Source: Paecilomyces variotii
Lineage: Eukaryota
Length of the DNA stretch: 39,565 nt
Direction: 5' to 3' (one strand)
Assembly (NCBI GenBank): GCA_004022145.1
Contig: RCNU01000035.1
Each line of letters starts with the position of its first letter. The stretch's first letter is position 1. The translations under genes were made by a program, and so were the position numbers. The notes under the pieces are model-generated. The model was not told the origin of the DNA. It saw only the letters and a list, made by a program, of their open reading frames with translations, and did no database searches. Positions 7,865 to 27,749 of this stretch are shown here, piece after piece.

Positions 7865-8137
7865 TATTATAAAATAGCAGTTAAAACTAGTAGATTCTAA
7901 TATAATTAAGATTTTACTTTAAAAAAATCTTTAGGAATAATTTTACTATAATAAAATTAAGCGGCTTAAAAAAAACTACTTCCTAAGTTTTATAAAAAAT
8001 CTATTACCCTAACTAAGAATATAAAGATATACTTTATGTCTATTATATATATCAATACTTCTTCTTCTTAAGTATTATTAGCCCTTTAAGCTATTAGATT
8101 AGTCTAGGAATTCTATCTAAACCTATTCTTTTTAACT
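7865..8137 (+). repeat. Copia-1 3' LTR (273 bp)
   Basis: Starts TATT (TGTT) after a purine tract and ends TTTAACT like the 5' copy. Confidence 0.85.
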
Positions 8138-10490
8138 TAAAGCTTTATATTAATTATTAAGCCTTAAATAATATTATTATAAAAAATAGATATTTTTTAT
8201 TTAAGGTAAATAAAATGCTTAACTAATTAGTTAGCTCTAAAATCTTTATTAAGCTTAATCTTAGAAATACTTATTATTAGATTAAAATCTATTATAAAAA
8301 TAAATAAAAAATAGCCTTTTAAACCTATTATAAGTATTTTAAATATTTAATTATATTATTTAGCTTATATAATATTCTTATTACTTTTTAAGCCTATATT
8401 AATTAAGTATTATAGGGGTTATTAAATATCTATTATATTATATATTTAGATAATATCTTAATTTTCTTTAACTCTATTAAGAAGTATAAGAGATATATAG
8501 TATAAGTCTTAAAAAGACTATAAAAATATAAATTATATATAAAGTTATTTAAATATAAATTCTATAAGAAAAAAGTTAAATTCTTTAATTTCTTTATAAA
8601 AAAAAATAAAATAGAGATAAATTTTAGTAAAATAAAAACTATTAAAAATTAGCTAAAGCTTAAATTTTCTTAAGATTTACTAGATTTTTTAGAAGATTTA
8701 TCTATAATTACTCTATAAAAACAGCTCCTTTAATTAGTCTATTAAAAGGAAGTATCTAGGGAAAAAAGACTAAAATATTTACTTAGATTAAAGAGGCTAT
8801 AAAGGTATTTAATAAACTAAAGTTAATATTTTTAACTCTATTAATATTAAGGTATTTTAATTTAAAGAAGCTAATATAACTTATAATTAATACTTTAAGA
8901 TTCGCCCTTACTATTATATTTTTTTAAGAAGATAATAATAAAATAAGTCTAAATATTAATTTAGAAATAGCTTTAAGAATTAAGACTAGGATAAATTATA
9001 ATATTATATTTAAGAACTAGTATTCTATAGTATATTATGCCTAGAAGTTTATTAAAATAGAGGTATATTATAAGGTCTATAATTAAAAACTCTTAGCTAT
9101 TATTAATATTTTTAAATATTAGTAATATTATTTAAAAAATAATAAATACCTTATATAAATATAAAGTAACTATATAAACCTGCGCTATTTTTTTACTATA
9201 AAGATATCAAATAATAAATAAGCTTAATAGGTAAAATTATTAGCAGTATATAACTTTTAAATTAAATATAAGCTAAAATAGTTTAATATTATAAATACTC
9301 TGTTTAAAAGGGTAGATTTTAAACTATTTAAAATTAAATTCTAGATAAGATTACTTCTAATCCTTTAAAAAAAGCTTTAATATAAAGCTTAGGATAAATA
9401 TATATAAAAAGATAATTTAAAGCATAAACCTATTAAAGCGGGCAGTATAAATAGTCTAAAATATTTAATATAAAAAATACTAATTATTAAGGTAATTAAA
9501 GAAGAGTTTATTTAAGATATTATAATTCTTAGCTTACTCTTTATATTAAAACAGCTTTAAATAAGAGATACTTTTATTTTAAAAAAAATTAGAAAATTAA
9601 AAGTATATACTCCTAGAAATAGCTTAAAGATAGTATAGAGAATAGATAATAAAGGACTATTATAAAAGAGTAATACTATATTTATACTAAATATACTTAC
9701 TATAAAGTAAGAGCTTTTTTAAATATATTATAATAACCTTTATATAAGATACTAAAGTATTAAAAAGACTAAAAAGCTGCTTTAAAGAAGATTTAACTAG
9801 CTTAAGATAATATAGAATATATAGGAATATATATTTATATATAATATTTACTAAAAAAATTAAACTTTATAGCATAAGCTATATAGAGAGCTAAAATCTC
9901 TATTAATCCTAGTATAGCTATAATAAAATATCTTAATAGATTTTATAATAAGACTGCTATTATTAGAGAAATAAGAAGTTATCTATAATTTAATATTAAT
10001 AATTATAGATTACTACTTAAAAATAGCGCTTTATATCTCTATTTATAAAATATTAAAGGCAGATAAAATAATTAACCTTATTATAAATTATATTTATAAC
10101 TGCTTTAAACCTTTATAATTAATTATATTAAATAAAGATATACTATTTATTAATAAATACTAGATAAAATTTTACTACTATATTTAAATTACTAGACTTT
10201 TAAATATTATATTTTACTCCTAGACTAATAGCTAGACTAAAAGATAAAATTAAATATTAGAATATTATCTTTAAGTCTACTTAAACTATAAATAAGATAA
10301 TTAAGTATTTTTATTAATTATAGCAGAGTTTATATATAATAACTTAATTTATATTTTTACTAGTATAATTTTCTTTTATATTATTTATAGATTTAACTCT
10401 AAGAATTAAAATAAATATAACTTTAAGAAGTAAATAAATATATTAATAGTTAATAATTAATTAAAAAAACTTATTAAAATATATACTTAA
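8138..10490 (+). pseudogene. Host Gypsy C, piece 1: RT (from LRLCVDY), RNase H, integrase core
   Basis: 8138-8290 de-RIPs to LRLCVDYRGLN..TIKNRYPLP.VDEMLD.L.GSKIFTKLDLRDAYHQIRI; YLDD at 8443-8454. Reverse-complement match to D at ~13356-15722. Confidence 0.93.
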
Positions 10491-11188: not shown

Positions 11189-12589
11189 ATGTTTTTAAGG
11201 TTATAATAATACTAATAGTATAGCAGTTTATTAAACTTAAGAAATTAGTTATTTTTTTATTAGTTTTTAGAGCTTCCTACTTTAGGGGTAAGTTATCTTA
11301 ATTAACTATATTAATATAAGCTAATTTAATTTAGATAATGTCGCCCTAAATTTATTTTATATTTAAGCAATATAAAAAGACTCCTTAAGTAAGTGTTCTA
11401 GTATAAGATTTTATATATTATATACTGATTTCTATAGTATTAATAGCCTAAGGATATTATCTCCCCCTCTAGGGAGTTATTTCCTTCTCCTACTTTTAAG
11501 ATAGAGGATATAGCTATTATTATTATAATACAGCTAAATCTAGTTGCTATTATAATATTAGAAAATAATCCCCTAACTACTGCTAAGATATTAGGGATTT
11601 TAGCCGTTATTATAATGCTAGAGAGACTACTTCCTTAGATAAGTATTACCCCTTTTATGGCTATTAATAGGTTAATATCTTTATTTACCCTAGGTTCTGT
11701 AGAGGATCTATTAGCTAAGATAAATATTATGCTAGAATTAAGGCGTAGGAGATTTATACTTTTATTAGATTAGCCTTTTTTTATAATCTTAGCTATTATA
11801 TAGGCGGGTTTATCTAATTTAATAATAGCGCTAAAAAGCCTATTAAAGAGAAAGAGGACTTATTTTATTATTAGGCTAGCTGCTATAGCTAAGCTAAGGA
11901 TAACTCTTATTTATACTATAAAAAGGCCCTAGAGATAAAGCGCAAGGCGTGAGGAGGTTATTAATATAAGGATTTAAACTAAACTAGCTGTTATTAAGAT
12001 ATTAATTAAAACTACTATTATTGCTATTACTAATATAATAATAGAGAATAGCCCTATTATCTCTTAGCTAGGTAAGAAGTTTTCTCTAGTGCCTTAAAAG
12101 ATATGCCTTTATTATTTAAAGGGGCTAATTAAGAATTTAGCACTTTAATATATTTATGCTAATATTAATATTAAGTGCAATTATTGCAGTTGTAAGTATA
12201 AGCCCTATATTTTAGTCTTATTAGTTTATAAGGATAAGCTTACTTATCTATAGAGCCTTAGCTAAGAGGCCTATCTCTTAGGTAATTATAGGTCTTTTAA
12301 GAAGGCTTATAATAAGTATAAATTCTTTATAAAGGTATATTTATATAAAGCGCCTATTAAGATAAATATAGATAAGCTTATATCTACTGTTCTATTAACT
12401 CTATTTTTATATAAGTAGTTTATAATATAGCTTTAGCAGGAGTTGCTTAAATTATTTTATTTAATAGTATTAAATCTGTAATATATGTAAGAAATTATAT
12501 ATATTACTTATAATATTCCTCCTTTCTCTAATAAGAAGGAGAATAAATCTGTATTAATAGGGTTCTATAATAGTAAAGTAAATAAGTAG
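11189..12589 (+). pseudogene. Antisense accessory ORF of D with Zn2Cys6-like cluster (RIP-inactivated)
   Basis: One frame de-RIPs coherently: MAPKSPSKRKR at 11825, C-x2-C-x11-C-x8-C-x2-C-x6-C at 12104-12208 (three codons still TGC, three TAT from TGT), and an acidic tail ending in TAG at 12587-12589. In-frame ATGs survive at 11189, 11615, 11657 and 11729; the true start is uncertain. Confidence 0.68.
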
Positions 12590-12789: not shown

Positions 12790-15700
12790 AAATTTTATTA
12801 GTTCTGTTAACTTCTTTTTTTAAAGCTTCTTAGAGCCTTTCTTAGAGAGGTTTTATTAATAGCTTATATTATTATCTTAAATTTAGTTAATATATCTTAA
12901 GCGTACTTAAGATTCTCCTTAGGTTATTATAAATTTTTATAATCTAGATAGCTCTTTTATTTAATTAAATATTACTTCTTTCCTTATATTATCTATTTAT
13001 CTAGAATAGCTTTAATCTCTTATTCTAGTTTATTATTTACTAAGATTAGGTTTAAATACTTAGGTTTAACCCCTAATCTTTAATAGTAGGGCTCTAATAG
13101 GGAGATATAAAAGACTAGGTATATTTTGCTCAGGCTTTTTAAGAGCTTAAGCTAATAGGCTTAAATTCTAATTCTCTCTATAACTTTATAAGGTCTTAAG
13201 TATTTTATATCTAGTTTTTTAATTAGTTAATCTGTCTTTAAGTTTTTTATTAAAAGGCAGACTCGGTCTCCTATTATATAGGATCTAGGCTTATATTTTT
13301 TATTATAATATTTCTATTATATAGTAATAGCCTTTTAAAGGGATTTTTTTAATTAGGTATATATTTTAGTAAGTTCTTTTAATTAATTATTAACTATTAG
13401 TATATTTATTTGCTTTCTAGAGTTATATTTATCTTAACTCTTAGGATTAAATTTATAGATAATGCGAAAGGGAGTTGTACTTATAGAGGTATAAATTAAA
13501 TTATTATATATAAATTCTGCTATAGTTAATAAGGATACCTAATTATTTTACTTATAGTTTAAGTAGACCTAGAGATAATATTTTAATATCTAGTTCTGCC
13601 TTTTAATCTAGCTATTAGTCTAGGGGTAAAATATAGTACTTAAAAGTCTAGTAATTTAAATATAGCAGTAAAGTTCTATCTAGTATTTATTAGTAAATAA
13701 TATCCCTTTATCTAATATAATTAACTATAGAGGTTTAAAGCAGTTATAGATATAATCTATAATAAGGTTAGCTATCTTATCTATCTTTAATATTTTATAG
13801 ATAGGGATATAGAGCGCTATTTTTAAGTAGCGGTCTATAATTACTAATATTAAATTATAAATAATTTCTTATTTCTCTAATAGCAGCAGTCCTATTATAA
13901 AATCTATTAAAATACTCTACTATAACTACGCTAGGATTAGTAAAGACTTTAGCTTTTTATATAGCTTATATTATAGAGTTTAGTTTTTCTGGCAGATATT
14001 ATATATAGATATATATTTTTATATATCCTGTATTATTTTAGGCTAGTTAAATCTTCTTTAAAGCAGCTCTTTAATCTTCTTAACGCCTTAATGCCCTATA
14101 TAAAGGTTATTATAATATATTTAAAGGAGCTCTTACTTTATAGCGGGTATATCTAATATAAATATAGTATTACTCTTCTATAATAATCTTTTATTATTTA
14201 TTCTCTATACTATCTCTAAGCTATCTTTAGGAATATATGCTTTTAATTCTTTAATTTTCTCTAAAATAAAGGTATTCTTTGCTTAAAGCTATTTTAATAT
14301 AAAGAGTAGGCTAAGAGTTATAGCATCTTAAATAGACTCTTCCCTAATTACTTTAATAACTAGTATTTTTTATATTAAATATTCTAGACTATTTATACCG
14401 CCCACTTTAATAAGTTTATACTCTAAACTACTTTCTTATATATACTTATCCTAAGCTTTATACTAAAGCTTTTTTTAGAGGGTTAGAAGTAATCCTATCT
14501 AGGATTTAGATTTAAATAGTTTAAAATCTGCCCTTTTAAATAGGGTATTTATAGTATTAAGCTATTCTAGCTTATATTTAATTTAAAAGTTATATACTGC
14601 TAATAGTTCTACTTATTAAGCTTACCTATTATTTAATATTTTTATAGTAAAGAAATAATATAAGTTTGTGTAATTGCTTTATATTTATATAGAATATCTA
14701 TTACCTTCTAGGTAATAATATTAATGTTTAAAAGTATTAATAATAGCTAGGAGTTCTTAGTTATAGACCTTGTAATATGCCTTTATTTTAGTAAACTTCT
14801 GGGTATAATATACTATAGGGTGCTAGTTCTTAAATATAGTTTATTAATCTATCTAAGTTTTAATTCTTAGACCTATCTCTAATCTAGCGCCTAAAGCTAT
14901 TTTATTACTATCTCCCTAAAGGAGTATAGTAGTAAGAGTAAATCCTAAGATATTAATCGTAAGTATTATTAGCTTTTTTAGATTAAAATGCCTTAGTACT
15001 AGCGGAGTTATAAAAGCTAATTTTAGCTTATTAAATACTTTCGCGGTTTCTTTAATCTAGATAAATATTTTAGTTTTCTTCCCCCGGATACTTTTTTTTA
15101 ATAAACTAGTTAAAGGAGCTGTTTTTATAGAGTAGTTATAGATAAATCTTCTAAAAAATCTAGTAAATCTTAAGAAGACCTGAATTTTTTTAAAGGATTT
15201 AGGCTTTAGCTAATTTTTAATAGTTTCTATTCTGCTAAGATCTATCTTTATTTTATCTTTCTCTATAAGGAAATTAAGGAATTTAACCCTTTTTTTATAG
15301 AATTTATATTTAGATAATTTCGCATATAATTTATATTCTTACAGTCTCTCTAAGACCTGCACTATATATCTTTTATACTCTTTAATAGAGTTAAAAAAGA
15401 TTAAGATATTATCTAAATATATAATATAATAGATATCTAATAATCCCTGTAATATTTAATTAATATAGGCTTAAAAAGTAGCGGGAGTATTATATAGGCT
15501 AAATAATATAATTAAGTACTTAAAATACTTATAATAAGTTTAGAAGGCTATCTTTTATTTATCTCCGCAGCAGATTCTAATCTAATAATAAATATCCCTA
15601 AGATTAAGCTTAATAAAGATCTTAGAGCTAACTAATTGGTTAAGTATTTTATTTATCCTAGGTAAAAGATATCTATTCTTTATAGTAATGCTGTTTAAGG

Positions 15701-16480
15701 CTTAATAATTAATATAAAGCCTTAATATATTATCTACCTTAGGAATAAATAGAATAGGTACTCTTGTAAGGCTTATTAATAGTTATATTTACTCTTTTTA
15801 TTATATATCTTTAAGATATTTATATAAAATATTAAGTTCTTTAGTAAAGAGGTTATAAAGTCTCTCTTATAAAGGCGCTGTACTATCTAAGAGTTTAATC
15901 TTATATTTATTTATTTTAGCGGGTAATATATTTATTCTTTTTTTTAAAAAGACCTCTATATACTTTTTATATTTTAAAGGTAAGTTTTTTAGAATAATAG
16001 GGTTAATTTGATCTCTGTAGAGTATCTAAATTATCTCTTCTCTTATTATCTTAGAGAATTATTAAGTATTTTTAATCTTTATTTATAATTATTATAGAAT
16101 ATAATATCTTTAAGTTATTAACTCTTAATCTATAATAAGATTAATAGCTTATAATTATAATTTCTTAAGAATAATAAATAATCTAGGTATTAAGATAATA
16201 TAAAAGTATATATCTGCCTTTTCTATAGTTTCTTCGGAGTTAATAATATAGATCTCCGCTTTAAAGAATCTATATTTCTAAATCTTATACTTGTTAATAG
16301 ATTTAAAGTTTATATACTATTAGAGATTTAGGGGAATTCTATATTATATAGCTATATTTAAGCTAATATAGCACTAAGCTAAACCTAAATTAATAAAAGC
16401 CTTATCTTTAAATATATTATTAGGTAGGTAAAGTTATATTAAAGTATATAAAGACTTTTTACTTATTTTAGATCTTTTAT
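12790..16480 (-). pseudogene. D pol remnant (PR, RT, RNase H, integrase, chromodomain)
   Basis: AFVDSG ~16385-16400; YLDD 15408-15419; TDASGF ~14945-14960; HDQELLAIVDAFKHWRHYLEG ~14703-14765; integrase HH..H ~14090-14118; chromodomain ~12870-13030. Ends are approximate. Confidence 0.92.
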
Positions 16481-18008: not shown

Positions 18009-18830
18009 CTTAATTAAAAGAATTTTTTTAAAAGATTATTACTGCATAATAAAAATATTATAATAAGAAATATAAGCCTAGATCTTATATAATAGAAGAC
18101 TAAGTTTACCTTTTAATAAAGAACTTAAAAATTAATTAATTAATTAAAAAACTAGATATAAAATACTTAAGACCTTATAAAGTTATAGAGAGAATTAAAA
18201 CTTAAGCTTATTAATTTAAGCTCTTAAAAAGCCTAAGTAAAATATATTTAATTTTTTATATCTCTTTATTAGAGCTTTATTATTAAAGACTAAAGGCTAA
18301 ACTTAAATATTTAAACTTAATCTTAGTAAATAATAAACTAAAATAAGAGATTAAAGCTATTTTAAATAAATAAATAATATAAGAAAAGAAATAATATTTA
18401 ATTAAATAGAAAAGCTATCTAGATTATAAAAATTTATAATAGCTTAAAAAAGACCTTAAGTATATTTAAAATATATTAGCTAAATTTAAGGTAATAATAT
18501 AAACTATTAATAAGATCTCTTTAAAAAAGGCTCTAAGAAGCTTTAGAAAAAGAAGTTAATAAAATTAATAAGATTTTCCTTTTTTTTCTTATTAGATTTT
18601 TAAATTTTATTTAATTATTTAATTATTAAATTTATATTACTCTTTCTCTATTTATTTATTTATAAAGGTTTAGGAGTTTTAATAAGGATATAAGAAGCTA
18701 ATTTATCTAGAAATAAATTTATTTTAATTAGGCTATCTCTAGTAAGAACTAAAAATATAGGCTTAAGATTAATCTCTCTTATTTATTTACTTTATTATTA
18801 TAGAACCTTATTAGTATAAATTTATCTTCT
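18009..18830 (+). pseudogene. Host C, piece 2: integrase C-terminus, chromodomain and start of 3' region
   Basis: Resumes exactly where piece 1 stops; KKLDAKYLGPYKV ~18146-18185; reverse-complement match to D ~12538-13360. Confidence 0.92.
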
Positions 18831-19441
18831 TATTATTACTCTAGGATCTTTCTTAGCTATTTTATTATACTATTATTAGAGAAAGCTTAAGTAAAACTTA
18901 CTTAATTTTTCCTTAATAATCTAAATCTATTTAGATCTTTTATAAGTAGTTAATATAGTTTACTTACTATAATCTATTAAGTAAGGCTTTATAAAGGTAT
19001 AATTTAATAGGTCTAATAGAATAATTAAATAATAATAGTTAAGTTAGAAGTAGGGCCTAGTTAAATTATAATCCTTCTAGTATTATTCTTACTAACCTAT
19101 AATAAATAGTAGATAAATAAAATATATTAAGTGCGAAGAACTAAATATATCTATAAAGCGTAAATAAGTATTCTTATATATTTAGTTCTTTCTATTATAC
19201 TATATACTATTCTACTATATATTTTATAATATATTTAATCTCTAATATTTTCTTATATACTATTCTCCTACTATTTTAATAGTATATTTAATAGTATATA
19301 TTATATGCTTTTCTATATTATTAACTATTCTAGTGCTATTCCTTTAAATTATATAATTAGTATCTTTATTATATAATTATGCTGCAGTTTTATATTATTC
19401 TTTTAGTTTCTTTATTTACTATATCTAGTTAGTCTATAATA
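18831..19441 (-). repeat. E 3' LTR (611 bp)
   Basis: Direct repeat of 24828-25435, adjacent to the PPT. Confidence 0.93.
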
Positions 19442-19565
19442 TTATTCTCTCTTTTTAAGGTCTTTATCTCTAAAGATATAGATATAAATAAAGCGCTCGC
19501 CTATATTACTATTAAGATTTTAGCTTTTCTTTTATAAGTAATATTTTTATAATATATTTATTATT

Positions 19566-20144
19566 ATACCTCTTAAGCGTTTTAATTACTTTACTAATTA
19601 TATTTATTAGTTTAATTATATTTACCTTAATAGTTACTTTATTAAATATTCTTATAAATATTATTTCTCTTATAGTAAAGCTTATATTATAGATTTAAAA
19701 AGTTAAAACTATACTTTTTATACTTATTATAGTTATAAATATAAAAAACAATTTTATAGTAAAAGAGAGTAAAATAAGCTTTAAGAAGCTTAAAAAAAAA
19801 TAAATATTAAACTTACTGCTGCTAAGAAATAATCTACTCTTCTTTTTATTAAAATTCTTCGCCTATAAAAATAGTAAAAGTTCTTAAAAGAGTATAATTC
19901 TAAAATATTAGATTATAATATTTTAGTAATAAATAAATTAAATAAAGAAAATTCTCTTTCTGCTAAAGATTTAGTTAAGCTTAATTACTTTATAATTAAA
20001 GATAATTATTAATATTAACAGCTATCTGCTACTCTTAATAATCTATTAATAAGTTAAATTCTTTATAATTTAAGCCCTAGTTTTTAGACTTTTACTAGTC
20101 TTAATATTCCTCTATTAAATATTAGTAATTTATTAAATTTTTAA
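19566..20144 (+). pseudogene. Antisense accessory ORF of E (~192 codons) with canonical Zn2Cys6 spacing and coiled-coil-like region
   Basis: De-RIPs to MPP..R...PCEYCFSRGKACIMDSKSQNCASCTRRGRKCEKQFHSEREWNKLQEAQ...ELAAAEEQ...KILRLRKQQKFLKER...LDELDEEDPLS. C-x2-C-x6-C-x8-C-x2-C-x6-C at 19653-19742; all six codons are now TAT (RIP of TGT). Confidence 0.7.
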
Positions 20145-23100
20145 CAGGTTCTTAAGTATTTTCTAAAGTATTATATTCTTTTTATTTTATAAGGTACTAA
20201 GTTTATTTATTAACTTTTCTTTCTTCTAAAATTCTTTTAATTTTATATTTTTCTTCTATAATCTTAACTTCTTTATATTATATTTAAGTATTTTGCAGTA
20301 CTAGTTTTAATAATAAGATATAAAAAATTAAGTATATTCTTATATTATCTAGGAGTTTTAATCTATAGTTTACTAGTCCGATTTTCTCTTTAATAATAAA
20401 TAGTCTAATCTTTTTATTATCTAGTTTACTACTTAATTATTTTATTTTAATATTTTTATATAGTAAGTATACTTTTTTCTCTCTTTTTAAGTTAAGTCTC
20501 TTTTAATATATTTTGTCGAAGTAGACTGCTATTCTAAGGTTTATAAATTTAATATCTTTTTATAGTTATTTATATAATATCTATAGCTATATAACTTTCT
20601 TTTCTGCTTTATAGTTTATTTTTTATATTTTCTTTAGTTTATTGCTAAATTTAAGATTATATCTAAAATTAATATAAAATAATATCTTCTTTATTATTAT
20701 ATTAATTAAGTTATTATATATAAATTATACTATAAGTAGTAATTTAACTTAATTACTTTAATTATAATTTATATAATTCTATAAGTATTACTTAATTATT
20801 TAATTTATTCTTTTTATTTATCTATTTATCTATAGGTAATAAGCTATGCTAAGTCTATACTTAATACTAATTATATCTATTAATGTTTTCTATAATTTTA
20901 ATATAAACTATAAATCTTTATTTATTATTATTCTCTTTAGTATACTATATTTACTAAATATATATTAAAGTAGTAAGTATACTATATTAATTACTATTAC
21001 GTCTTAACTCTTAGTAATTATTATTACTACTAGTTATACTATTTAATAGTTATATATAATTATTCTATTTTTTTTCTCTTTAATAGCGTTAGTTTAAGTT
21101 CTTAGATTTTTTTTTTATAATTTAGTCTTTTACTAAGTATATCTACTCGCTTATTTTATTCTCTATTATAATATTTAATTATAAAGTTATAATTAGCTAA
21201 TACTTTTACTTATTTTACTTATCTTTATATTAATACTTTAATTATTATAAAATAAGTAAAATTCTTATAATCTATAATTATTTTAATTATATATTTTATT
21301 CTTTTAAGATAAACTCTCTATTATTAAAACGCTATTATTATAGCTAGTAATTCCTTATTATAAATCTTATAATTTAATTCTATTAGTATTATTTTTCTTA
21401 AATAATATATTATTAAATATAGCTTTTTATTATTATTTAGCTATAATATAATTACTTTAATTATATAGTCTAATATATTAGTCTTAATAATTATTTCCTT
21501 TTCTAAATTATATTATCTAAGTATTAGTACTATAATAAGTCTTATTTTAACTTCCTTAAATATTTTCTATTAGGTTTTAATCTATTAGTAATTTTTCTTT
21601 TTCTTTAATAAGTTAAATAGTAATCTTATAATATCTATATATTGTTTAATATATTATTAGTAATAGTTTACTATTTTAATAAATACTTATAATTCTTATA
21701 GGTTTATTAGTATTAGCTAATCTTTAATTATCTAAATCTTTTATTTATCTGTTTATATCCCTTCTTAAATAATTTAATATCTTAGGAAATTTATTTCCTT
21801 AATATAAAATTTATATTTTTTTAGCTTTATTCTTAGCTTTACTATTTATAATTATTATAATATTATCTTAATATATTTAATATATTCTTTATAATTTTTA
21901 GAAAATATTAAAATATTATTTAGGTATATAACTATAAAGTTATATATATAATCTCTTAATACTTTATTAATAAATTATTAAAATATTACTAGTGCATTAG
22001 TTAATTTAAAAGGTATAATCTTATATTTATAATATTTAAACTTAGTTTTAAATGCTATTTTCTATTCTTTACCTTTCTTTATTTATAATCTATTATAGAT
22101 ATCTGCAATATTAAATTTTATAAAAATCTTTACTTCTTATACTATATCTTAAATCTCTATAATTAGTAGTAATAGGTATTTATTCTTAATTATAATAGCG
22201 TTAAGCTATTAGTAATCTGTATATAGTTATAAACTTCTATCTTTCTTTAATATAAATAGTATTAAATATTCTGCTAGTAATATTAATAGTTATATATAAC
22301 TTTTTTATAGGTTCTCTTTAATATATATTTTTAGTACTTTTAATTTTTTCTTTAATAATTAGTAAATTAGTTTATATATTAGTAACTTCCCTTTAATTAA
22401 GGATATTTTATAATTATATAGTCTATAGTTTAGTAATTCCTTATTAATGCTAAGATTAAAGAGATTTTAAAATTATTTATATTTTTTTAATATCTTTAAT
22501 TCTATTATCTTTTTTAACTTCTTTATTCTTATTATAGTACTATATAGTATCTAACTATATTACTTCTCCTAGATTTATATATTCTATTATATAATCTTAC
22601 TTATTAACTCGCTTTCTAAAAGTTCTTTAAGATTTTCTTATTCTTTTAACTTAGAGCTATTAATTATTTCCCTTAACTTAATCCCTTTTATAGCTAACTT
22701 TACCTCGCCTATTTAACTCTTAAGAGCCTAGAAATAGTCTTATTTTAGCCTTATTCTATATATATATCTTATAAATTATATCTTATTATATGTTTAATTA
22801 ATCTTTAAATTATATTATCTAAGCTATAATACTCTAAGTACTATATTATACTCTTTAATCTTAGTTATATTAAAGTTAAGTAATTTTAAATAGTTTTAAA
22901 CTAATATTAGAATTATTTCTATCTTTATAGTTAAAGATTATCTTAAGTCTTCTCTATTAAATCTTAAAATTAATACTAGCTATTTCTTTATTTTTTTTTA
23001 GAATTTATAACTTCTTTATAAATCTTAGGTTTATAAAGTTTCTTATAGCTCTTAAGTTAACTAGTACTTTAATTAATTAGCCTATAATCTTAGCCTATAA

Positions 23101-24800
23101 TTTAATATATTAACCTTTAGCTATTACTACTATTTAGTATTATCTTTCTTATTATTATCTTTTAATTCGGTTTTCTCTTAGAAAATACCTATTATTAATC
23201 TTCGCGCTATAATATATTAAATAATAGTCTTTATAATATACTGTCTAATATATACTCTTATACTCTAGGTATCTCTAATACTTTCTCTATATATATCTTA
23301 GCCTATTATAATAGGCTAATATTTCTCTTTATAAGGAATTTACTTAAGTCTTAGCTTATTAAGCCTCTTACTTATAGCTATACTTATTTAAGTTTAATAA
23401 AATAAAATCTATTACTCGCGTCTTAGCCTTAATTACTTTAATACTTAGTTTTTTATTAGTTTTAAGCGATTATTTACTATTTATATCTTTTAGCTTCTTA
23501 AGTATTTCTTTAGCCTTATATTATTCTTTTAATTTAATTAAGTCCTTTTATAGAATTATTATAACTACTTTATTAATTTTATTATTTAATAATATTATTT
23601 ATTGCTTTATAAGTTATTTTACTACTTTAAATATTTCCTAGGTTTCTTATAAATATTTATTAATTTTATCCTATACTTCTTATACTATTTCTAGTAATAC
23701 TAATACTTATTTAGCCTATTTAATCCTTAAAAGATCTATATTTTTATCTCTATTATCTTAAGTTATTTATTTATATTATATTTATTCTTAGCTCTTTAAA
23801 ACTTTATTATAATTACTTTCTTTATTTATTGCTTTTAATTATTATCTTAGTTTTTTTAATACTTTATAATTCTTTATATAATAGCTTTCTTTATTACAGT
23901 TAAAATATTTAAACTTCTTTTATTTTTAATTCTAATTAATTCTATTATTTCGTCTTAGTACTATAGCGTTTAGCTTTATTAGCCTTAATCTATAGGGATT
24001 CTTATCTCTAATTAGTTATTTCTTATTTAATCTATATTAATTTAATTTACGATATTCTATAGATCTTTATTATTTCGCATATTTTTTAGCTTATTTTCGT
24101 TCGAATATCTTATTATTAATTTTAATTAATAATTTAATAAGGTTATTAATATTATCTAGTCTATTAACTTATATAAGTTTATCTTAAACTTCTTTCTTAA
24201 GTCCTTATTTATAAACTGCTATTTATACTAATAATCTTTATCTTAGATAAGATATAATTTATTTAAACTATATCGCGTAATCTGCTGCTAATTATATTTA
24301 ATATAAATATTTAAGCTTTTGCTTTATAACCTTTATCTTATCTCTAATATTAAATGCTTTATTTAGCTTTGCTTAAAAGCTTATATAGCTTCTATAAATT
24401 TATTTAGTAATTTTATCTTTATTAGGATTTAAATTCTTATTAACTACTATTAAGTTAATCTAATTAAATACTAGTCCTCTTATATAGAATATTACTAAAA
24501 GTATTTTATTATTATTATTAGTAATATTTATTATTTAAAAGTATAGATTTAATTAAATAATAAATATTTATAACTTATCTCTTTTACTATAATAATTTTT
24601 AAGTTTTAGTAATTTAATTCCTTATTATAGTTTATCTTCTGCAGCTTATATAGTTATAATAATCTCTTATAATTATTTAATTATTCTTATAAATTCTTAA
24701 GTTATAGAAGTGCGATTTATATTATTAGTTATTATAGCCTACTTAGCAGATATTACTTAATTATTACTAAATATCTTAAATCTTTAAATACTTAAACCTT
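20090..24800 (-). pseudogene. E gag-pol remnant
   Basis: DPYGPRPMELD ~23970-24000; CCHC knuckle ~23865-23910; extra H..W..C..D.C..H motif ~23205-23265; VLVDSGA ~23048-23068; LFVPKKDGSLRLCTDYRQLN ~22200-22260; YLDD 21915-21926; RIHPIFHVSLLEP ~20300-20340; chromodomain QYLVKWKGY...ENTWEP ~20146-20200. Confidence 0.92.
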
Positions 24801-24827
24801 TAGTAATAGAGTTAAAAGTACTTAATA

Positions 24828-25435
24828 TATTATTACTTTAAGATTTTTCCTAGCTATTTTATTATATTATTAAAAAAGGCTTAAATAAAACTTATTTAAT
24901 TTTTCCTTAATAATTTAAGTCTATCTAGATTTTCTATAAGTAGTTAATATAGCTTATTTATTATAATCTATTAAGTAAGGCTTTATAAAGGTATAACTTA
25001 ATAAGTTTAATAAGATAATTAAATAATAATAGTTAAGTTAGAAATAAAGCTTAATTAAATTATAATTCTTCTAATACTATTCTTATTAACTTATAATAAA
25101 TAATAAATAAATAAAATATATTAAGTATAAAGAACTAAATATATCTATAGAGCGTAAATAAGTATTTTTATATATTTAATTCTTTCTATTATACTATATA
25201 CTATTTTACTATATATCTTATAGTATATTTAATCTCTAGTATTTTCTTATATATTATTCTTCTATTATTTTAATAGTATACTTAATAATATATATTATAT
25301 GCTTTTTTATATTATTAACTATTTTAATACTATTTCTCTAAATTATATAATTAGTATCTTTACTATATAATTATACTGCAGTTTTATATTACTCTTTTAG
25401 TTTCCTTATTTACTATATTTAGTTAGTCTATAATA
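24828..25435 (-). repeat. E 5' LTR (608 bp)
   Basis: Direct repeat of 18831-19441. Confidence 0.93.
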
Positions 25436-26074
25436 CTTTCTCTTTATTAGAGAAAGAAAGAATATTATAAGCAATATATATAATTTCTTATATACGCTAT
25501 AAATTTAATATTATTAAATAAAGTAATTTAAGTAACTTCTATTAAAGCTATATTATAAACTATTTATATAAAGATAAGGTTAATAAGATAATAAATATAA
25601 GCTTATCTATATCTATTTTAATAGGCGCTTTATATAGATATATCTTTATAAAAGATTTATATTTATTATAGGCCTCTTTAAAAAACTTATAGTTATTTAA
25701 GAGATAAGCCTCTTAATTAAAGCTTTATAAATAAATAAGCTTATTCTTATAAATTAATAAGATTAAAATATAAGGCTTATATTTATAACTATAATAATTA
25801 TATTTAATATTAATATTAATATAAGTATATTAAAGTATTAAATTCTTAATTAGCCCCTTTAAATAATAAAGGTATATTTTTTAAAATATTAAAAGAAACT
25901 CTTTATTTAGCCTAGAGATAGTAAAGTTATTCTCTATTATTATATTAATAATAATAATAATAATAATAATAATCTTAATTAATATTTTAATAATAGCTAG
26001 TTTAATTTAAGTCTCTATATTAATAATCTCCTTATACTCTATATTTTATCTCTAAGGCCTTTTTATAATATAAG
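25436..26074 (+). mobile_element. Host C, piece 3: 3' region carrying the Zn-cluster part of the antisense ORF (minus strand ~25771-25875)
   Basis: Reverse-complement match to D ~11908-12542. Confidence 0.9.
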
Positions 26075-26223
26075 TATAACCAGGCGAAGCCGTAAAGATA
26101 TAGGAGGTAAGAAGGTTAATTGTTTTACTAGAGAGATACTGCTTACTAAGTGCTGTTAAGGCAGTTTAATAGGCGGTTTAATACTGCCGCAGCTGCAGCT
26201 ATAGCAGAGCTATATTTATAATA
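26075..26223 (-). repeat. F 3' LTR (149 bp)
   Basis: Colinear with 34386-34534. Confidence 0.95.
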
Positions 26224-27749
26224 GAATATCTCTTCCTTAAATAAAAGAAATAGTATCTGCGCTGTAATATAATTAGATATAATTTATTAGCTATAGCTAT
26301 CTTATTCTTTATTTAGGAAGACCTTTTTAGCGCTTAAAAGCTTTTTAATATTATTTTCTGTAGTCTTAATAAGCTATATAGTGCTAGTTATAAATTTATT
26401 CTGCTAAAAAATTAGCTATTTTTACTCTTTTTATTGCTATTCCTATTAATAATATTTATATTAGTAGATATTTAGCTGGGCCTAGTAGCCTTTAAAGAAG
26501 TCTTAGTAAAGCTATTTAGTAAGGTTAATAAGGCTATTATATATATAATATTAAGGGAAGAAGATAATATTATTATATTTTACTAGTTAATAATTCTTAT
26601 CTATTAGATAGTAAGATTAATTTTTTTATTATTATAGTAAGCCTAGCAGAATTATTATATATAATAAGACTAATAGCTCTCTCCGGCGAAGCTATTATTT
26701 ATTTTTTAAAAATCTTTCTCTTATTATATTTATTAGGACTCCTACTATAGCTATAAGCAGATTTTTTAAGTCTAAGAGAATTGGGCGCTTAGGGCTTAGT
26801 TTTTAAATAAGCATAATAGCTATAAAGATAAAGTGTAATTCTAGTTATAAAAACGCCTAATATTTATTTATATAGACTATGTTGTTTTAGTAGTTCTATA
26901 TTATCCCTATAATAGTTAAGTTATTTTATCTTTAAGGTTATAAGTTTTTAAATTATTTTTTACTATTTATATTAGGCTGCCCTTATTTATTATTTAGATA
27001 TTCTTATATATATTATCTCTTTATTTATTCTTTTTCTTTATTAGGGTTTATATTATTTATAGTATTATTAATATTATTTTCTAATATTAAATTATTAGTA
27101 TTACTCTCTAATATTAAATTAATAGTTAGGGGCTATAGCCTATAGTAAATTATTAATTAGGCTAAGTATATATTAAGGCTATTATTAGGGCTTAGATTTA
27201 AATTTTTATTTATAAGATTTTTACTAATACTAGATTCTCTTACTATTATAATATAGTAATATTTTTCCTTAAAGATATATTAATAATGCGCTTTAATCTG
27301 TTAATAGAATTATAGAATATTATTTAATTATGCTAGCATTGCTGTTGCGGCGTATATTAAGTATATTAATACTAAGTATTTTATTAAGTCTAGGAATTAT
27401 TTTTTTTATCTGGCCTTATAGTCTTATAATATTTCTCCTATTTAAATACTATAGTAAAGTCTTAGTCTTTTTTATAAGGTAGGTTATTCTGCTAGCTATA
27501 TATTTAGTTATATAATTATAATATAGCCTCTGTTCTTATTATTAGGCGTAAAGATATTTATTAATATATTAATATTTAATAATAATATAGGATAAGTAGT
27601 AGTTTATGCTAAATAAGAGAGGTTAAGCTAATATTTTACTAGAGTTAGCTGTAGGTATAGTATAAGGATAAAGTAAGTAAAGTATTGCTAGTATTAGCTA
27701 AGTAAGCTAATAACCCCTCCTCTAATAGTAAATATATAGAACTACTAGT

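What the first reader, a model, noticed from the sequence alone, without database searches (positions are those of the whole stretch)
19566..20144. Gypsy element E carries an antisense gene with a canonical Zn(II)2Cys6 (Gal4-type) spacing
Seen: between the 3' LTR and the chromodomain, the strand opposite pol has one frame with TAT codons spaced exactly C-x2-C-x6-C-x8-C-x2-C-x6-C (19653-19742). A helical stretch (ELAAA...KILRLxKxxKFLKE, largely readable without correction) and an acidic region follow. The ORF ends tail-to-tail, overlapping the pol 3' end. Established: TGT>TAT is the standard RIP change, this spacing defines fungal binuclear Zn-cluster DNA-binding domains, and antisense extra ORFs are reported in a few fungal Gypsy elements with mostly unknown function. 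Inference: the ancestral element encoded its own small DNA-binding regulator, possibly expressed from an antisense promoter in the 3' LTR (trans-activator, copy-number control or anti-silencing factor).
Basis: partly seen in the sequence, partly recalled or inferred. Interest (0 to 1): 0.85.

Follow-up and report, generated by a model that had tools for sequence, protein, structure and literature searches.

The report
Dead zinc-cluster gene inside fungal retrotransposon
A mutation-wrecked fungal jumping gene carries, on its reverse strand, the remains of a small zinc-cluster protein gene that survives intact in related moulds, so this group of retrotransposons seems to carry its own regulator-like protein.

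Summary
Window 19566-20144 (+) lies between the pol chromodomain and the 3' LTR of a RIP-degraded Ty3/Gypsy element on the minus strand (LTRs 18831-19450 and 24828-25443).

Read through its 13 internal stops, the frame finds 13 proteins at E<=1e-3 (best 5e-17) among 1.84 billion. A profile then finds 141, mostly from Eurotiales. Intact members carry C-x2-C-x6-C-x8-C-x2-C-x6-C exactly where the window has TAT. All 22 columns with >=90% consensus can be reached from the family residue by C>T/G>A alone (shuffled mean 3.4, max 9).

An intact metagenome copy (L001) shows the same layout: the ORF lies tail-to-tail with a chromodomain, overlapping it by 56 bp.

The cysteine domain stays below Pfam's PF00172 cut-off. 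However, two models rank Gal4/Hap1/Put3-type domains first in fold searches, at weak scores. A homodimer through the long helix is supported by a model (0.50 against a best control of 0.05).

The function as a DNA-binding regulator and the promoter are inferred. I found no paper describing this family. The window copy is dead.

The parts
19566..20144 (+). RIP-inactivated antisense gene: 192 codons plus stop, 13 internal stops, no frameshift. It is a member of a family of small Zn2Cys6-like coiled-coil proteins. ATA at 19566 is the former ATG; TAA at 20142-20144 is the stop.
   Evidence: phmmer best E 5e-17. End-to-end alignment with the family. The family profile hits the six-frame window only at 19614-20087, E 5.6e-19. 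RIP-compatibility 22 of 22, 44 of 48 and 84 of 95 columns, against shuffled means of 3.4, 8.7 and 18.
19653..19742 (+). Former six-cysteine cluster, C-x2-C-x6-C-x8-C-x2-C-x6-C. All six Cys codons are now TAT.
   Evidence: The family columns are 100% Cys in the 71 full-length members, which were selected for having six Cys. 76 of 129 family proteins keep all six.
19767..19925 (+). Remnant of the long helix (family residues about 62-124), predicted to form a coiled-coil dimer. It includes RLRKQQKFLKE, read here as RL*K**KFLKE.
   Evidence: AF2 model helix 62-124. Homodimer model interface 56-117. Alignment.
19926..20091 (+). Remnant of the acidic helix (LDxEDPLSAEDLxELDRLA) and of the LAAxS..P.L.Q..PSFW segment.
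20092..20144 (.). Tail-to-tail overlap: the last 17 codons and stop of the antisense gene on the + strand, and the last codons of the pol chromodomain on the - strand.
   Evidence: L001 has the same arrangement with a 56-bp overlap.
20092..24700 (-). gag-pol of the host Ty3/Gypsy chromovirus, RIP-degraded, with one frame change near 21000-21100. RT/RNase H lies at 21327-22481 and the chromodomain at the 3' end. The gag start is approximate.
   Evidence: Six-frame reading. Homologues carry PF00078, PF17919 and PF17917. tblastn.
18831..19450 (-). 3' LTR.
   Evidence: 89.5% identical to 24828-25443. All 61 mismatches are transitions.
24828..25443 (-). 5' LTR.
19451..19565 (.). 115-bp spacer between the LTR edge and the former ATG. 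On the - strand it holds the purine-rich tract next to the LTR (about 19451-19475). On the + strand it is the presumed 5' UTR or proximal promoter of the antisense gene (inferred).
   Evidence: Sequence. L001 has a comparable spacer of about 110 bp with a TATA-like motif.

Best explanation
Window 19566-20144 (+) is the point-mutated corpse of a genuine gene. A lineage of fungal Ty3/Gypsy chromoviruses carries this gene antisense, between the end of pol and the 3' LTR, with its last codons overlapping the chromodomain.

Intact relatives are 170-240 residues long. They contain, in order:
- a basic N-terminal helix (MPKR...);
- a six-cysteine cluster with binuclear Zn2Cys6 spacing and a very basic second half (CTRRGRKC-EKRFH);
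- a helix of about 60 residues, modelled as a homodimeric antiparallel coiled coil;
- an acidic helix;
- a disordered tail.

Shown: the gene family exists, the window copy belongs to it, RIP-type transitions killed the window copy, and the gene sits antisense inside Gypsy elements.

Inferred:
- It folds as a Gal4-like two-zinc cluster (about 0.7).
- It is a dimeric nucleic-acid-binding regulator made from its own antisense promoter at the 3' end of the element. It would act on the element's LTR or on host genes, in the way HBZ of HTLV-1 is an antisense-encoded transcription-factor-like protein (about 0.4-0.5).
For: Homology:
- The read-through translation finds 13 proteins at E<=1e-3 among 1.84 billion representatives, best 5.1e-17.
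- A profile of 10 intact members finds 141 proteins.

Cysteines:
- 56 of 129 family proteins in hand have exactly C-x2-C-x6-C-x8-C-x2-C-x6-C.
- 76 of 129 have it when loop lengths are allowed to vary. The rest are N-truncated or carry Tyr for Cys.

RIP decay:
- 22 of 22 strongly conserved columns are reachable by C>T/G>A only, with 7 identical. Shuffled codons give a mean of 3.4 and a maximum of 9 in 2000 shuffles.
- 61 of 61 mismatches between the two LTRs are transitions.
- GC of the region is 16.6%.

Context:
- In L001 an intact ORF (894-1421) overlaps by 56 bp an intact chromodomain end on the other strand (1497-1366). An LTR and a gag start follow.
- Signs that the gene sits in repeats: four paralogues at >=90% identity on four scaffolds of Thermoascus crustaceus, and several database members with RIP-like Tyr-for-Cys changes.
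- In 97 of 129 proteins the C-terminal tripeptide can mirror the chromodomain's N-L in the L001 phase, against 3.7% of internal tripeptides. This rests on one conserved motif, so the 97 are not independent.

Fold:
- AF2 gives pLDDT 84.4 and 85.1.
- Foldseek's top ranks are almost all Zn2Cys6 DNA-binding domains, for example Pho7 at 2.2 A over 43 columns and Ppr1 at 2.1 A over 34.
- The top PDB hit of the family profile is GAL4 with all six Cys aligned, but E is 0.27.
- PF00172 is the Pfam family matched by most members, 23 of 71 at E<=1.
- The Atlas structure search lists Zn(2)-C6 clusters at TM 0.61-0.81.
- UniRef names two members Zn(2)-C6 fungal-type domain proteins.

Dimer: score 0.50 against a best control of 0.05. 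That mark was reached by 21 of 30 proteins solved as pairs of one chain and 0 of 23 solved as single chains. The runs agree in at least 75% of their contacts, and the partner's pLDDT is at least 71.
Against: - No fold or sequence match to Zn2Cys6 domains is statistically significant. Foldseek E values are 0.8-4, the GAL4 sequence hit has E 0.27, and the best PF00172 E is 0.0097 with none at the gathering score.
- AlphaFold may place six cysteines in a Gal4-like knot from memory.
- Basic residues average 0.82 between Cys2 and Cys3 against 2.64 between Cys5 and Cys6. As I recall, canonical domains contact DNA through a basic first half.
- The modelled dimer is antiparallel (contacts i+j of about 172-175). 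That would put the two clusters at opposite ends of a long rod, unlike Gal4.
- DNA context is known for only two loci, the window and L001.
- There is no expression evidence for the gene. The only RNA contig laid on the window covers 20322-20564, inside pol.
- No dN/dS could be computed.
Confidence: 0.8

Rival explanations
1. The gene is real and element-borne, but the cysteine cluster is a structural zinc knot in an adaptor protein and does not bind DNA. The protein would work by protein-protein or RNA contacts, for example steering integration, packaging RNA or countering host silencing.
For: All matches to PF00172 are below threshold. The first half of the cluster lacks the basic residues. 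The modelled coiled coil is antiparallel, unlike Gal4-type dimers. The review PMC7264820 (passages read) says the functions of all antisense extra ORFs remain unknown.
Against: Three structure-based rankings put Zn2Cys6 DNA-binding domains first. The invariant CTRRGRKC-EKRFH segment is strongly basic. The order of basic N-terminus, cluster, dimerising helix and acidic helix is that of a minimal transcription factor.
Confidence: 0.3
2. The ORF is a host gene fragment picked up by one element lineage (transduction). It is a passenger, not a maintained part of the element.
For: The other Gypsy remnants in the window lack it. Only two loci with DNA context were seen.
Against: The position, orientation and overlap phase are the same in the window and in L001, whose ORFs are only distantly alike. 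141 relatives at 30-60% identity keep the ORF and the six Cys. The C-terminal motif fits the overlap in 97 of 129. No longer relative of 432-2000 residues was found, which is weak evidence.
Confidence: 0.05
3. The TAT spacing is chance in TA-rich RIP-mutated DNA and there never was a gene.
For: TAT makes up about 10% of codons. The relaxed pattern occurs 3 times in the window, as expected by chance. Stop density does not distinguish the frame. Pfam finds nothing in the raw frames.
Against: phmmer E is 5e-17 to proteins whose Cys residues align to the TAT codons. The profile hit has E 5.6e-19 in one frame only. RIP-compatibility lies far beyond shuffles.
Confidence: 0.01

Closest known systems
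[quoted passage not shown] 2011, Virology 417:248). I know it only through citations in PMC8365987, PMC7264820, PMC4227169 and PMC5987419 (passages read); the paper itself is not held.
   Same: An extra gene between pol and the 3' LTR of a fungal chromodomain-bearing Gypsy element, on the strand opposite gag-pol.
   Different: None of the 120 listed of 141 family hits carries a Botrytis, Sclerotinia or BRTN name. In the passages I read, no zinc cluster is mentioned for brtn.
Antisense additional ORFs between pol and the 3' LTR of plant Gypsy elements: Grande gene23, RIRE2, Retand and PvRetro13 (review PMC7264820, passages read).
   Same: Same position and orientation. Some have their own promoter upstream of the ORF and a nuclear protein. 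A regulatory role is proposed.
   Different: These are in plants, in mostly non-chromovirus lineages. The review states that none shows clear similarity to other database proteins. Here a recognisable transcription-factor-type cysteine cluster and a coiled coil are present.
Gal4-type fungal Zn(II)2Cys6 transcription factors (Pfam PF00172; Gal4, Hap1, Put3, Ppr1, Leu3, Pho7).
   Same: Six Cys with spacing inside the family's range. Two short helices start at the C-x2-C pairs. A linker and a dimerising helix follow. These structures top both fold searches.
   Different: The sequence is below the Pfam cut-off. The basic residues sit in the second half of the cluster. The protein has under 240 residues and no long relative of 432-2000 residues was found (weak evidence), so nothing resembling the large middle region of host zinc-cluster factors is seen. 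The modelled dimer is antiparallel. The gene is encoded by a retrotransposon, not by the host.
HBZ of HTLV-1, an antisense-encoded bZIP protein. This is recalled; the HTLV antisense promoter in the 3' LTR is mentioned in PMC7264820.
   Same: A retroelement gene on the minus strand at the 3' end. The product has a basic nucleic-acid-binding-type region and a dimerising helix. This is an analogy of function only.
   Different: No homology: a bZIP, not a zinc cluster, and an animal retrovirus. Expression and function of the fungal gene are untested.

Membership tests
Pfam PF00172 Zn_clus (fungal Zn2Cys6 binuclear cluster) | Six cysteines spaced C-x2-C-x6-C-x5-12-C-x2-C-x6-8-C (range recalled). 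| tested here: met
   56 of 129 proteins have the exact 2-6-8-2-6 spacing. 76 of 129 have it with loops of 8, 10 or 11 and 6, 7 or 8 residues. The window has TAT at all six places.
Pfam PF00172 Zn_clus (fungal Zn2Cys6 binuclear cluster) | Score at or above Pfam's gathering cut-off (21 bits). | tested here: not met
   In one search, 1 of 9 proteins matched: P0027 at 14.4 bits, E 0.043, over the second half of the domain only. In one search, 23 of 71 matched at E<=1 with best E 0.0097, and none reached the cut-off.
Pfam PF00172 Zn_clus (fungal Zn2Cys6 binuclear cluster) | Fold of the binuclear cluster: two helix-strand halves around two metals. | tested here: inconclusive
Pfam PF00172 Zn_clus (fungal Zn2Cys6 binuclear cluster) | Basic residues after the second Cys that contact DNA (recalled from the Gal4 literature). 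| tested here: not met
   Mean K+R is 0.82 between Cys2 and Cys3, against 2.64 between Cys5 and Cys6, in 56 members.
Pfam PF00172 Zn_clus (fungal Zn2Cys6 binuclear cluster) | Binds two zinc ions and binds DNA. | not testable with these tools
   Needs purified protein.
Antisense additional ORF between pol and 3' LTR of LTR retrotransposons (aORF-3R) | Lies between the pol stop and the 3' LTR, on the strand opposite gag-pol. | tested here: met
   Window: LTR edge at 19450, ORF at 19566-20144, pol end at about 20092. L001 has the same arrangement.
Antisense additional ORF between pol and 3' LTR of LTR retrotransposons (aORF-3R) | Present in most copies of a family and in several species, not a one-off capture. 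| tested here: inconclusive
   141 proteins from several Eurotiales genera, and a C-terminal motif that fits the overlap in 97 of 129. DNA context was seen at only 2 loci.
Antisense additional ORF between pol and 3' LTR of LTR retrotransposons (aORF-3R) | Transcribed antisense from its own promoter. | not tested
   No stranded RNA data for an intact copy. The one RNA contig on the window lies in pol.
Ty3/Gypsy chromovirus (host element) | Two LTRs; gag; pol in the order RT, RNase H, integrase; C-terminal chromodomain. | tested here: met
   LTRs. Homologues of the RT/RNase H region carry PF00078, PF17919 and PF17917. The integrase C-terminal region and chromodomain motifs YLIKWKxY..ENTWEP..NL were read and matched to L001. 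The chromodomain was not scored against Pfam.
RIP (repeat-induced point mutation) decay | Only C>T and G>A transitions, with extreme AT enrichment of repeats. | tested here: met
   61 of 61 LTR mismatches are transitions. GC is 12-27% across the window. 22 of 22 conserved columns are RIP-compatible. A second genomic copy differs mainly by C>T (28) and G>A (19).

The most novel reading that the evidence does not exclude
A lineage of Eurotiales chromoviruses encodes its own minimal Gal4-like zinc-cluster transcription factor on the antisense strand. It would be made from a promoter at the 3' end of the element. It would bind the element's LTR, or host promoters, as a dimer to set the element's transcription or to blunt silencing: a fungal retrotransposon counterpart of HTLV-1 HBZ. 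If so, retrotransposons could also move zinc-cluster regulators, and their binding sites, around fungal genomes.
Probability: 0.35. Interest if true: 0.8.

Novelty: new variant of a known kind. Interest (0 to 1): 0.72.

Why it matters
Antisense extra genes in LTR retrotransposons are known, but none has an assigned function, and the review I read (passages of PMC7264820) says none resembles any known protein. This family has a readable architecture: a zinc-cluster-like domain, a dimerising helix and an acidic helix. It also has more than a hundred intact members in culturable moulds. That makes the open question of what such genes do directly testable, by zinc and DNA binding, LTR reporters and knock-outs in a tractable Aspergillus.

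The case also shows that a RIP-destroyed gene can be recognised from purine/pyrimidine-preserving decay. Finally, proteins annotated as hypothetical, RAD50-like or Zn(2)-C6 in several fungal genomes are probably transposon genes and not host regulators.

Tried and rejected
- Whole genome: none is held, so no genome-wide set of copies could be compared.
- Pfam on the six raw frames of 19451-20144: nothing at E<=10.
- Stop density as a coding test: rejected. Frames antisense to pol score as low as the candidate frame.
- Purine content, which RIP does not change: the + strand is 47.8% purine over the ORF, against 39% over pol. This separates strands weakly and frames hardly at all, so I did not use it.
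- Reads and contigs: at >=80% likeness the spacer 19451-20061 is covered in organism A's runs only by the identical contig. A second, more mutated copy starts at a contig end at 20062. No variant letter was listed at the six TAT codons. No RNA contig covers the ORF. These absences are not evidence.
- Earlier findings of this scan: nothing.
- Viral-contig scan: 127 pattern matches, none confirmed.
- Search for longer proteins: none (weak).
- The first 'shift -1' variant of the overlap test was mis-specified. It returned zero even for background and is disregarded. One search replaces it.
- Papers: searches found no report of a zinc-cluster gene in a fungal retrotransposon. The text of Muszewska 2011 (PMC3248453) has no 'antisense' or 'zinc'. 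PMC4427930 has none of the five terms searched. Supplements were closed and may list extra ORFs. Repbase and Dfam could not be consulted.
- dN/dS: not possible, because only one intact DNA copy (L001) was obtained.

Full report
Setting. The window is extremely AT-rich (GC 12-27% per kb). Reading the minus strand of 18500-26500 in three frames shows a Ty3/Gypsy gag-pol riddled with stops. Recognisable motifs remain: RT (YTDY**LNAIIIKNKYLLLLI, YLNNILIFSK), RNase H, an integrase C-terminal region and a chromodomain (YLIK*KEYNTLENT*EPVKNLINY*YLIEEY). The RT/RNase H part finds 19 proteins carrying PF00078, PF17919 and PF17917, with E down to 8e-59. Two LTRs, 18831-19450 and 24828-25443, are 89.5% identical, and all 61 mismatches are transitions. 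So 'element E' is a RIP-degraded chromovirus on the minus strand. The finding's interval is the spacer of about 690 bp between the 3' LTR and the end of pol.

The observation. The + frame from 19566 has TAT at 19653, 19662, 19683, 19710, 19719 and 19740, which reads Y-x2-Y-x6-Y-x8-Y-x2-Y-x6-Y. On its own this is weak. Tyr codons are about 10% of every frame, and 11 of the 30 codons in the stretch are TAT. The exact spacing occurs once in the six frames, but the family of allowed spacings occurs 3 times, which is about the chance rate. The stop density of the frame (0.073) is no lower than in frames antisense to pol that hold no gene (0.066-0.084). Pfam finds nothing in any raw frame.

What settles it. 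I read the frame through its stops with X and searched it with phmmer against 1.84 billion representative proteins. It finds 13 proteins at E<=1e-3, four of them at E<=1e-10, with a best E of 5.1e-17. These are proteins of 82-217 residues. The intact ones read ...PC..C......C[IV]MD.K.RNC..CTRRGRKCEKRFHS..EW..., with six Cys aligned to the window's six TAT codons. A helix with RLRKQQKFLKE follows (window: RL*K**KFLKE), and then MLDHD..VM..LD.EDPLSAEDL.ELDRLA (window: ILDYNILVINKLNKENSLSAKDLVKLNY). The alignment runs from the family's Met1, which is ATA at 19566 in the window, to the stop at 20142-20144, without any frameshift. A profile of 71 full-length members hits the six-frame translation of the whole window only here (19614-20087, E 5.6e-19).

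I then tested the RIP idea column by column. Where the family consensus is >=90%, 22 of 22 window codons can be derived from a codon of the consensus residue by C>T/G>A alone, and 7 are identical. At >=70% the figure is 44 of 48, and at >=50% it is 84 of 95. With the window's codons shuffled among columns, the means are 3.4, 8.7 and 18.0, and the maxima over 2000 shuffles are 9, 18 and 33. The four misses at >=70% lie in the C-terminal part (codons 154-193), where the alignment is shaky: two of them, at codons 176 and 193, are offsets, judged by eye. The 13 internal stops sit at family Arg, Gln or Trp columns wherever the consensus is clear.

The family. A profile search returns 141 proteins at E<=1e-3. 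The named ones come from:
- Aspergillus (chevalieri, affinis, calidoustus, hiratsukae, fumigatus, udagawae);
- Penicillium (steckii, nucicola);
- Talaromyces (marneffei, stipitatus);
- Rasamsonia emersonii and Thermoascus crustaceus;
- one Fusarium sp..

The rest come from metagenomes and run assemblies. None has a precomputed Pfam domain apart from three spurious Nup54 labels. Sources call them hypothetical, RAD50, myosin or, twice in UniRef, 'Zn(2)-C6 fungal-type domain-containing'.

Of the 129 proteins in hand, 56 have the exact spacing and 76 keep six Cys when loop lengths may vary. Among the 71 full-length members the middle and last loops are 8 and 6 residues in 51, 10 and 6 in 15, 11 and 6 in 3, and 8 and 7 or 8 and 8 in one each. 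The others are N-terminally truncated gene models or carry Tyr in place of Cys, as RIP would produce. No relative of 432-2000 residues was found, which is weak evidence.

Link to retrotransposons beyond this window. One scan of metagenome contigs gave L001, 1497 bp. It holds three features:
- an intact 175-codon family ORF on the + strand (894-1421);
- on the other strand, an open frame reading ...YLVKWKGYDTSENTWEPIDNLTNCQLLLQDYCQQ*, a chromodomain end that stops at 1366, 56 bp inside the ORF;
- further along that strand, a purine tract, an LTR of about 466 bp with TGTTAC...GTAACA ends, and the start of a gag frame.

This is the same architecture as in the window, where the overlap is about 53 bp, but in an undamaged element. 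The LTR-to-ATG spacer is about 110 bp in L001 and 115 bp in the window.

Indirect signs that the other members are also transposon-borne:
- four paralogues at >=90% identity on four scaffolds of one genome;
- RIP-like variants among the database members;
- the family-wide C-terminal ...PSGS[RQ] motif.

By the genetic code, that motif is what the opposite strand of the chromodomain's P-x-x-N-L encodes in the L001 phase. 97 of 129 C-termini fit it, against 3.7% of internal tripeptides. This rests on one conserved motif, so it is a consistency check and not 97 independent observations. The other two Gypsy remnants in the window (pol at 8134-9203 + and 14625-15989 -) show no trace of the gene.

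What the protein looks like. AlphaFold2 on the 71-sequence alignment gives a mean pLDDT of 84.4. The model has a helix at 2-18, two short helices at 27-32 and 46-51 that start at the C-x2-C pairs, one long helix at 62-124, a helix at 129-152 and a disordered tail.

No match to solved structures is significant, but the rankings are consistent:
- Foldseek's list for the full model is almost entirely Zn2Cys6 DNA-binding domains (Put3, Hap1, Gal4, Pho7, Leu3, Ppr1, Cep3, Lac9, AlcR) at E 0.8-7. Local fits include 2.2 A over 43 columns and 2.1 A over 34.
- A natural 88-residue member modelled the same way (pLDDT 85.1) gives the same list.
- The family profile's best PDB hit is GAL4 with all six Cys aligned, at E 0.27.
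- PF00172 is the Pfam family most members touch, 23 of 71 at E<=1, but none reaches the 21-bit cut-off.
- The Atlas's own model of residues 18-66 lies nearest to Zn(2)-C6 clusters, at TM 0.61-0.81.

A two-copy model passes its controls: score 0.50 against a best control of 0.05. That mark was reached by 21 of 30 proteins solved as pairs of one chain and by 0 of 23 solved as single chains. The runs agree in at least 75% of their contacts, and the partner's pLDDT is at least 71. The model supports pairing and does not show it. The interface covers residues 56-117, and the contact pairs sum to about 172-175, which means an antiparallel coiled coil.

How it most likely works. Shown: a maintained protein-coding gene lies antisense at the 3' end of a chromovirus lineage, and the window's copy was killed by RIP. 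Inferred: the protein is a small, probably nuclear, zinc-cluster dimer that binds nucleic acid through its basic cluster half. It would be made from its own promoter in the 110-115-bp spacer or the 3' LTR. L001 has a TATA-like TATTTATTATTAG about 45 bp upstream of the ATG. The protein would then tune the element's own transcription or host responses. The nearest functional analogy is HBZ of HTLV-1 (recalled). The main rival is a zinc-stabilised adaptor that does not bind DNA. I put about 0.95 on the gene, family and RIP reading, about 0.7 on a Gal4-like two-zinc fold, and 0.4-0.5 on a DNA-binding regulator.

Comparison with what is known. Antisense extra ORFs between pol and the 3' LTR are known in plant Gypsy elements and, among fungi, in Boty (brtn) of Botrytis and Sclerotinia (passages of PMC7264820, PMC8365987, PMC4227169 and PMC5987419). 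The review states that none has a clear similarity to database proteins and that their functions are unknown. The brtn paper itself is not held, so homology to brtn is untested. No Botrytis or Sclerotinia name appears among the 120 listed hits. Five full-text searches and the fungal LTR survey PMC3248453 gave no report of a zinc-cluster gene in a fungal retrotransposon. Supplements, Repbase and Dfam could not be checked. I therefore file this as a new variant of a known kind.

Where the DNA occurs. The stretch is held nearly word for word by runs labelled 'organism A' (about 34 Mb of contigs) and by food-fermentation and grain metagenomes: 20 rows in 8 studies. In organism A's contigs, the spacer is covered at >=80% likeness only by the identical contig. 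A second, more mutated copy of the pol end (87% identical over 20062-20568) begins at a contig end.

Verdict. The copy in this window is a fossil. The interest lies in the family it reveals.

Noticed in passing
window 25444-25600 and 12378-12534: The DNA just outside the 5' LTR of element E matches 12534-12378 on the opposite strand at 84.7% identity. Element E therefore sits in or next to another repeat family, as a nested insertion in a RIP-mutated repeat block.
   Followed up: no
window 8134-9203 (+) and 14625-15989 (-): Two further Gypsy RT/RNase H remnants (tblastn). The family profile finds no antisense zinc-cluster ORF near them.
   Followed up: partly
window 20322-20564: A 243-base contig from a food-fermentation metatranscriptome run (X20) matches the integrase C-terminal part of pol with one difference. 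It could be low-level transcription of the dead element or carried-over DNA.
   Followed up: no
window 20062-20568: Organism A's contigs hold a second copy of the pol end, 87% identical, differing mostly by C>T and G>A and by 8 small gaps. It is cut by a contig end at 20062, so it is unknown whether it keeps the antisense gene.
   Followed up: partly
L001 791-902: In the intact metagenome element, the spacer of about 110 bp between the LTR edge and the ORF's ATG holds a TATA-like TATTTATTATTAG about 45 bp upstream of the ATG. On the other strand a purine tract abuts the LTR.
   Followed up: no
family proteins P0023 and relatives, residues 56-117: The two-copy model pairs the long helices antiparallel (contact pairs sum to about 172-175). 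This would place the two cysteine clusters at opposite ends of the rod, unlike Gal4-type parallel dimers.
   Followed up: partly
family proteins: Several members are annotated in public records as RAD50, myosin heavy subunit, SbcCD, YdcH or RNase H-like nuclease. These are probably coiled-coil-driven mislabels of a transposon gene.
   Followed up: no
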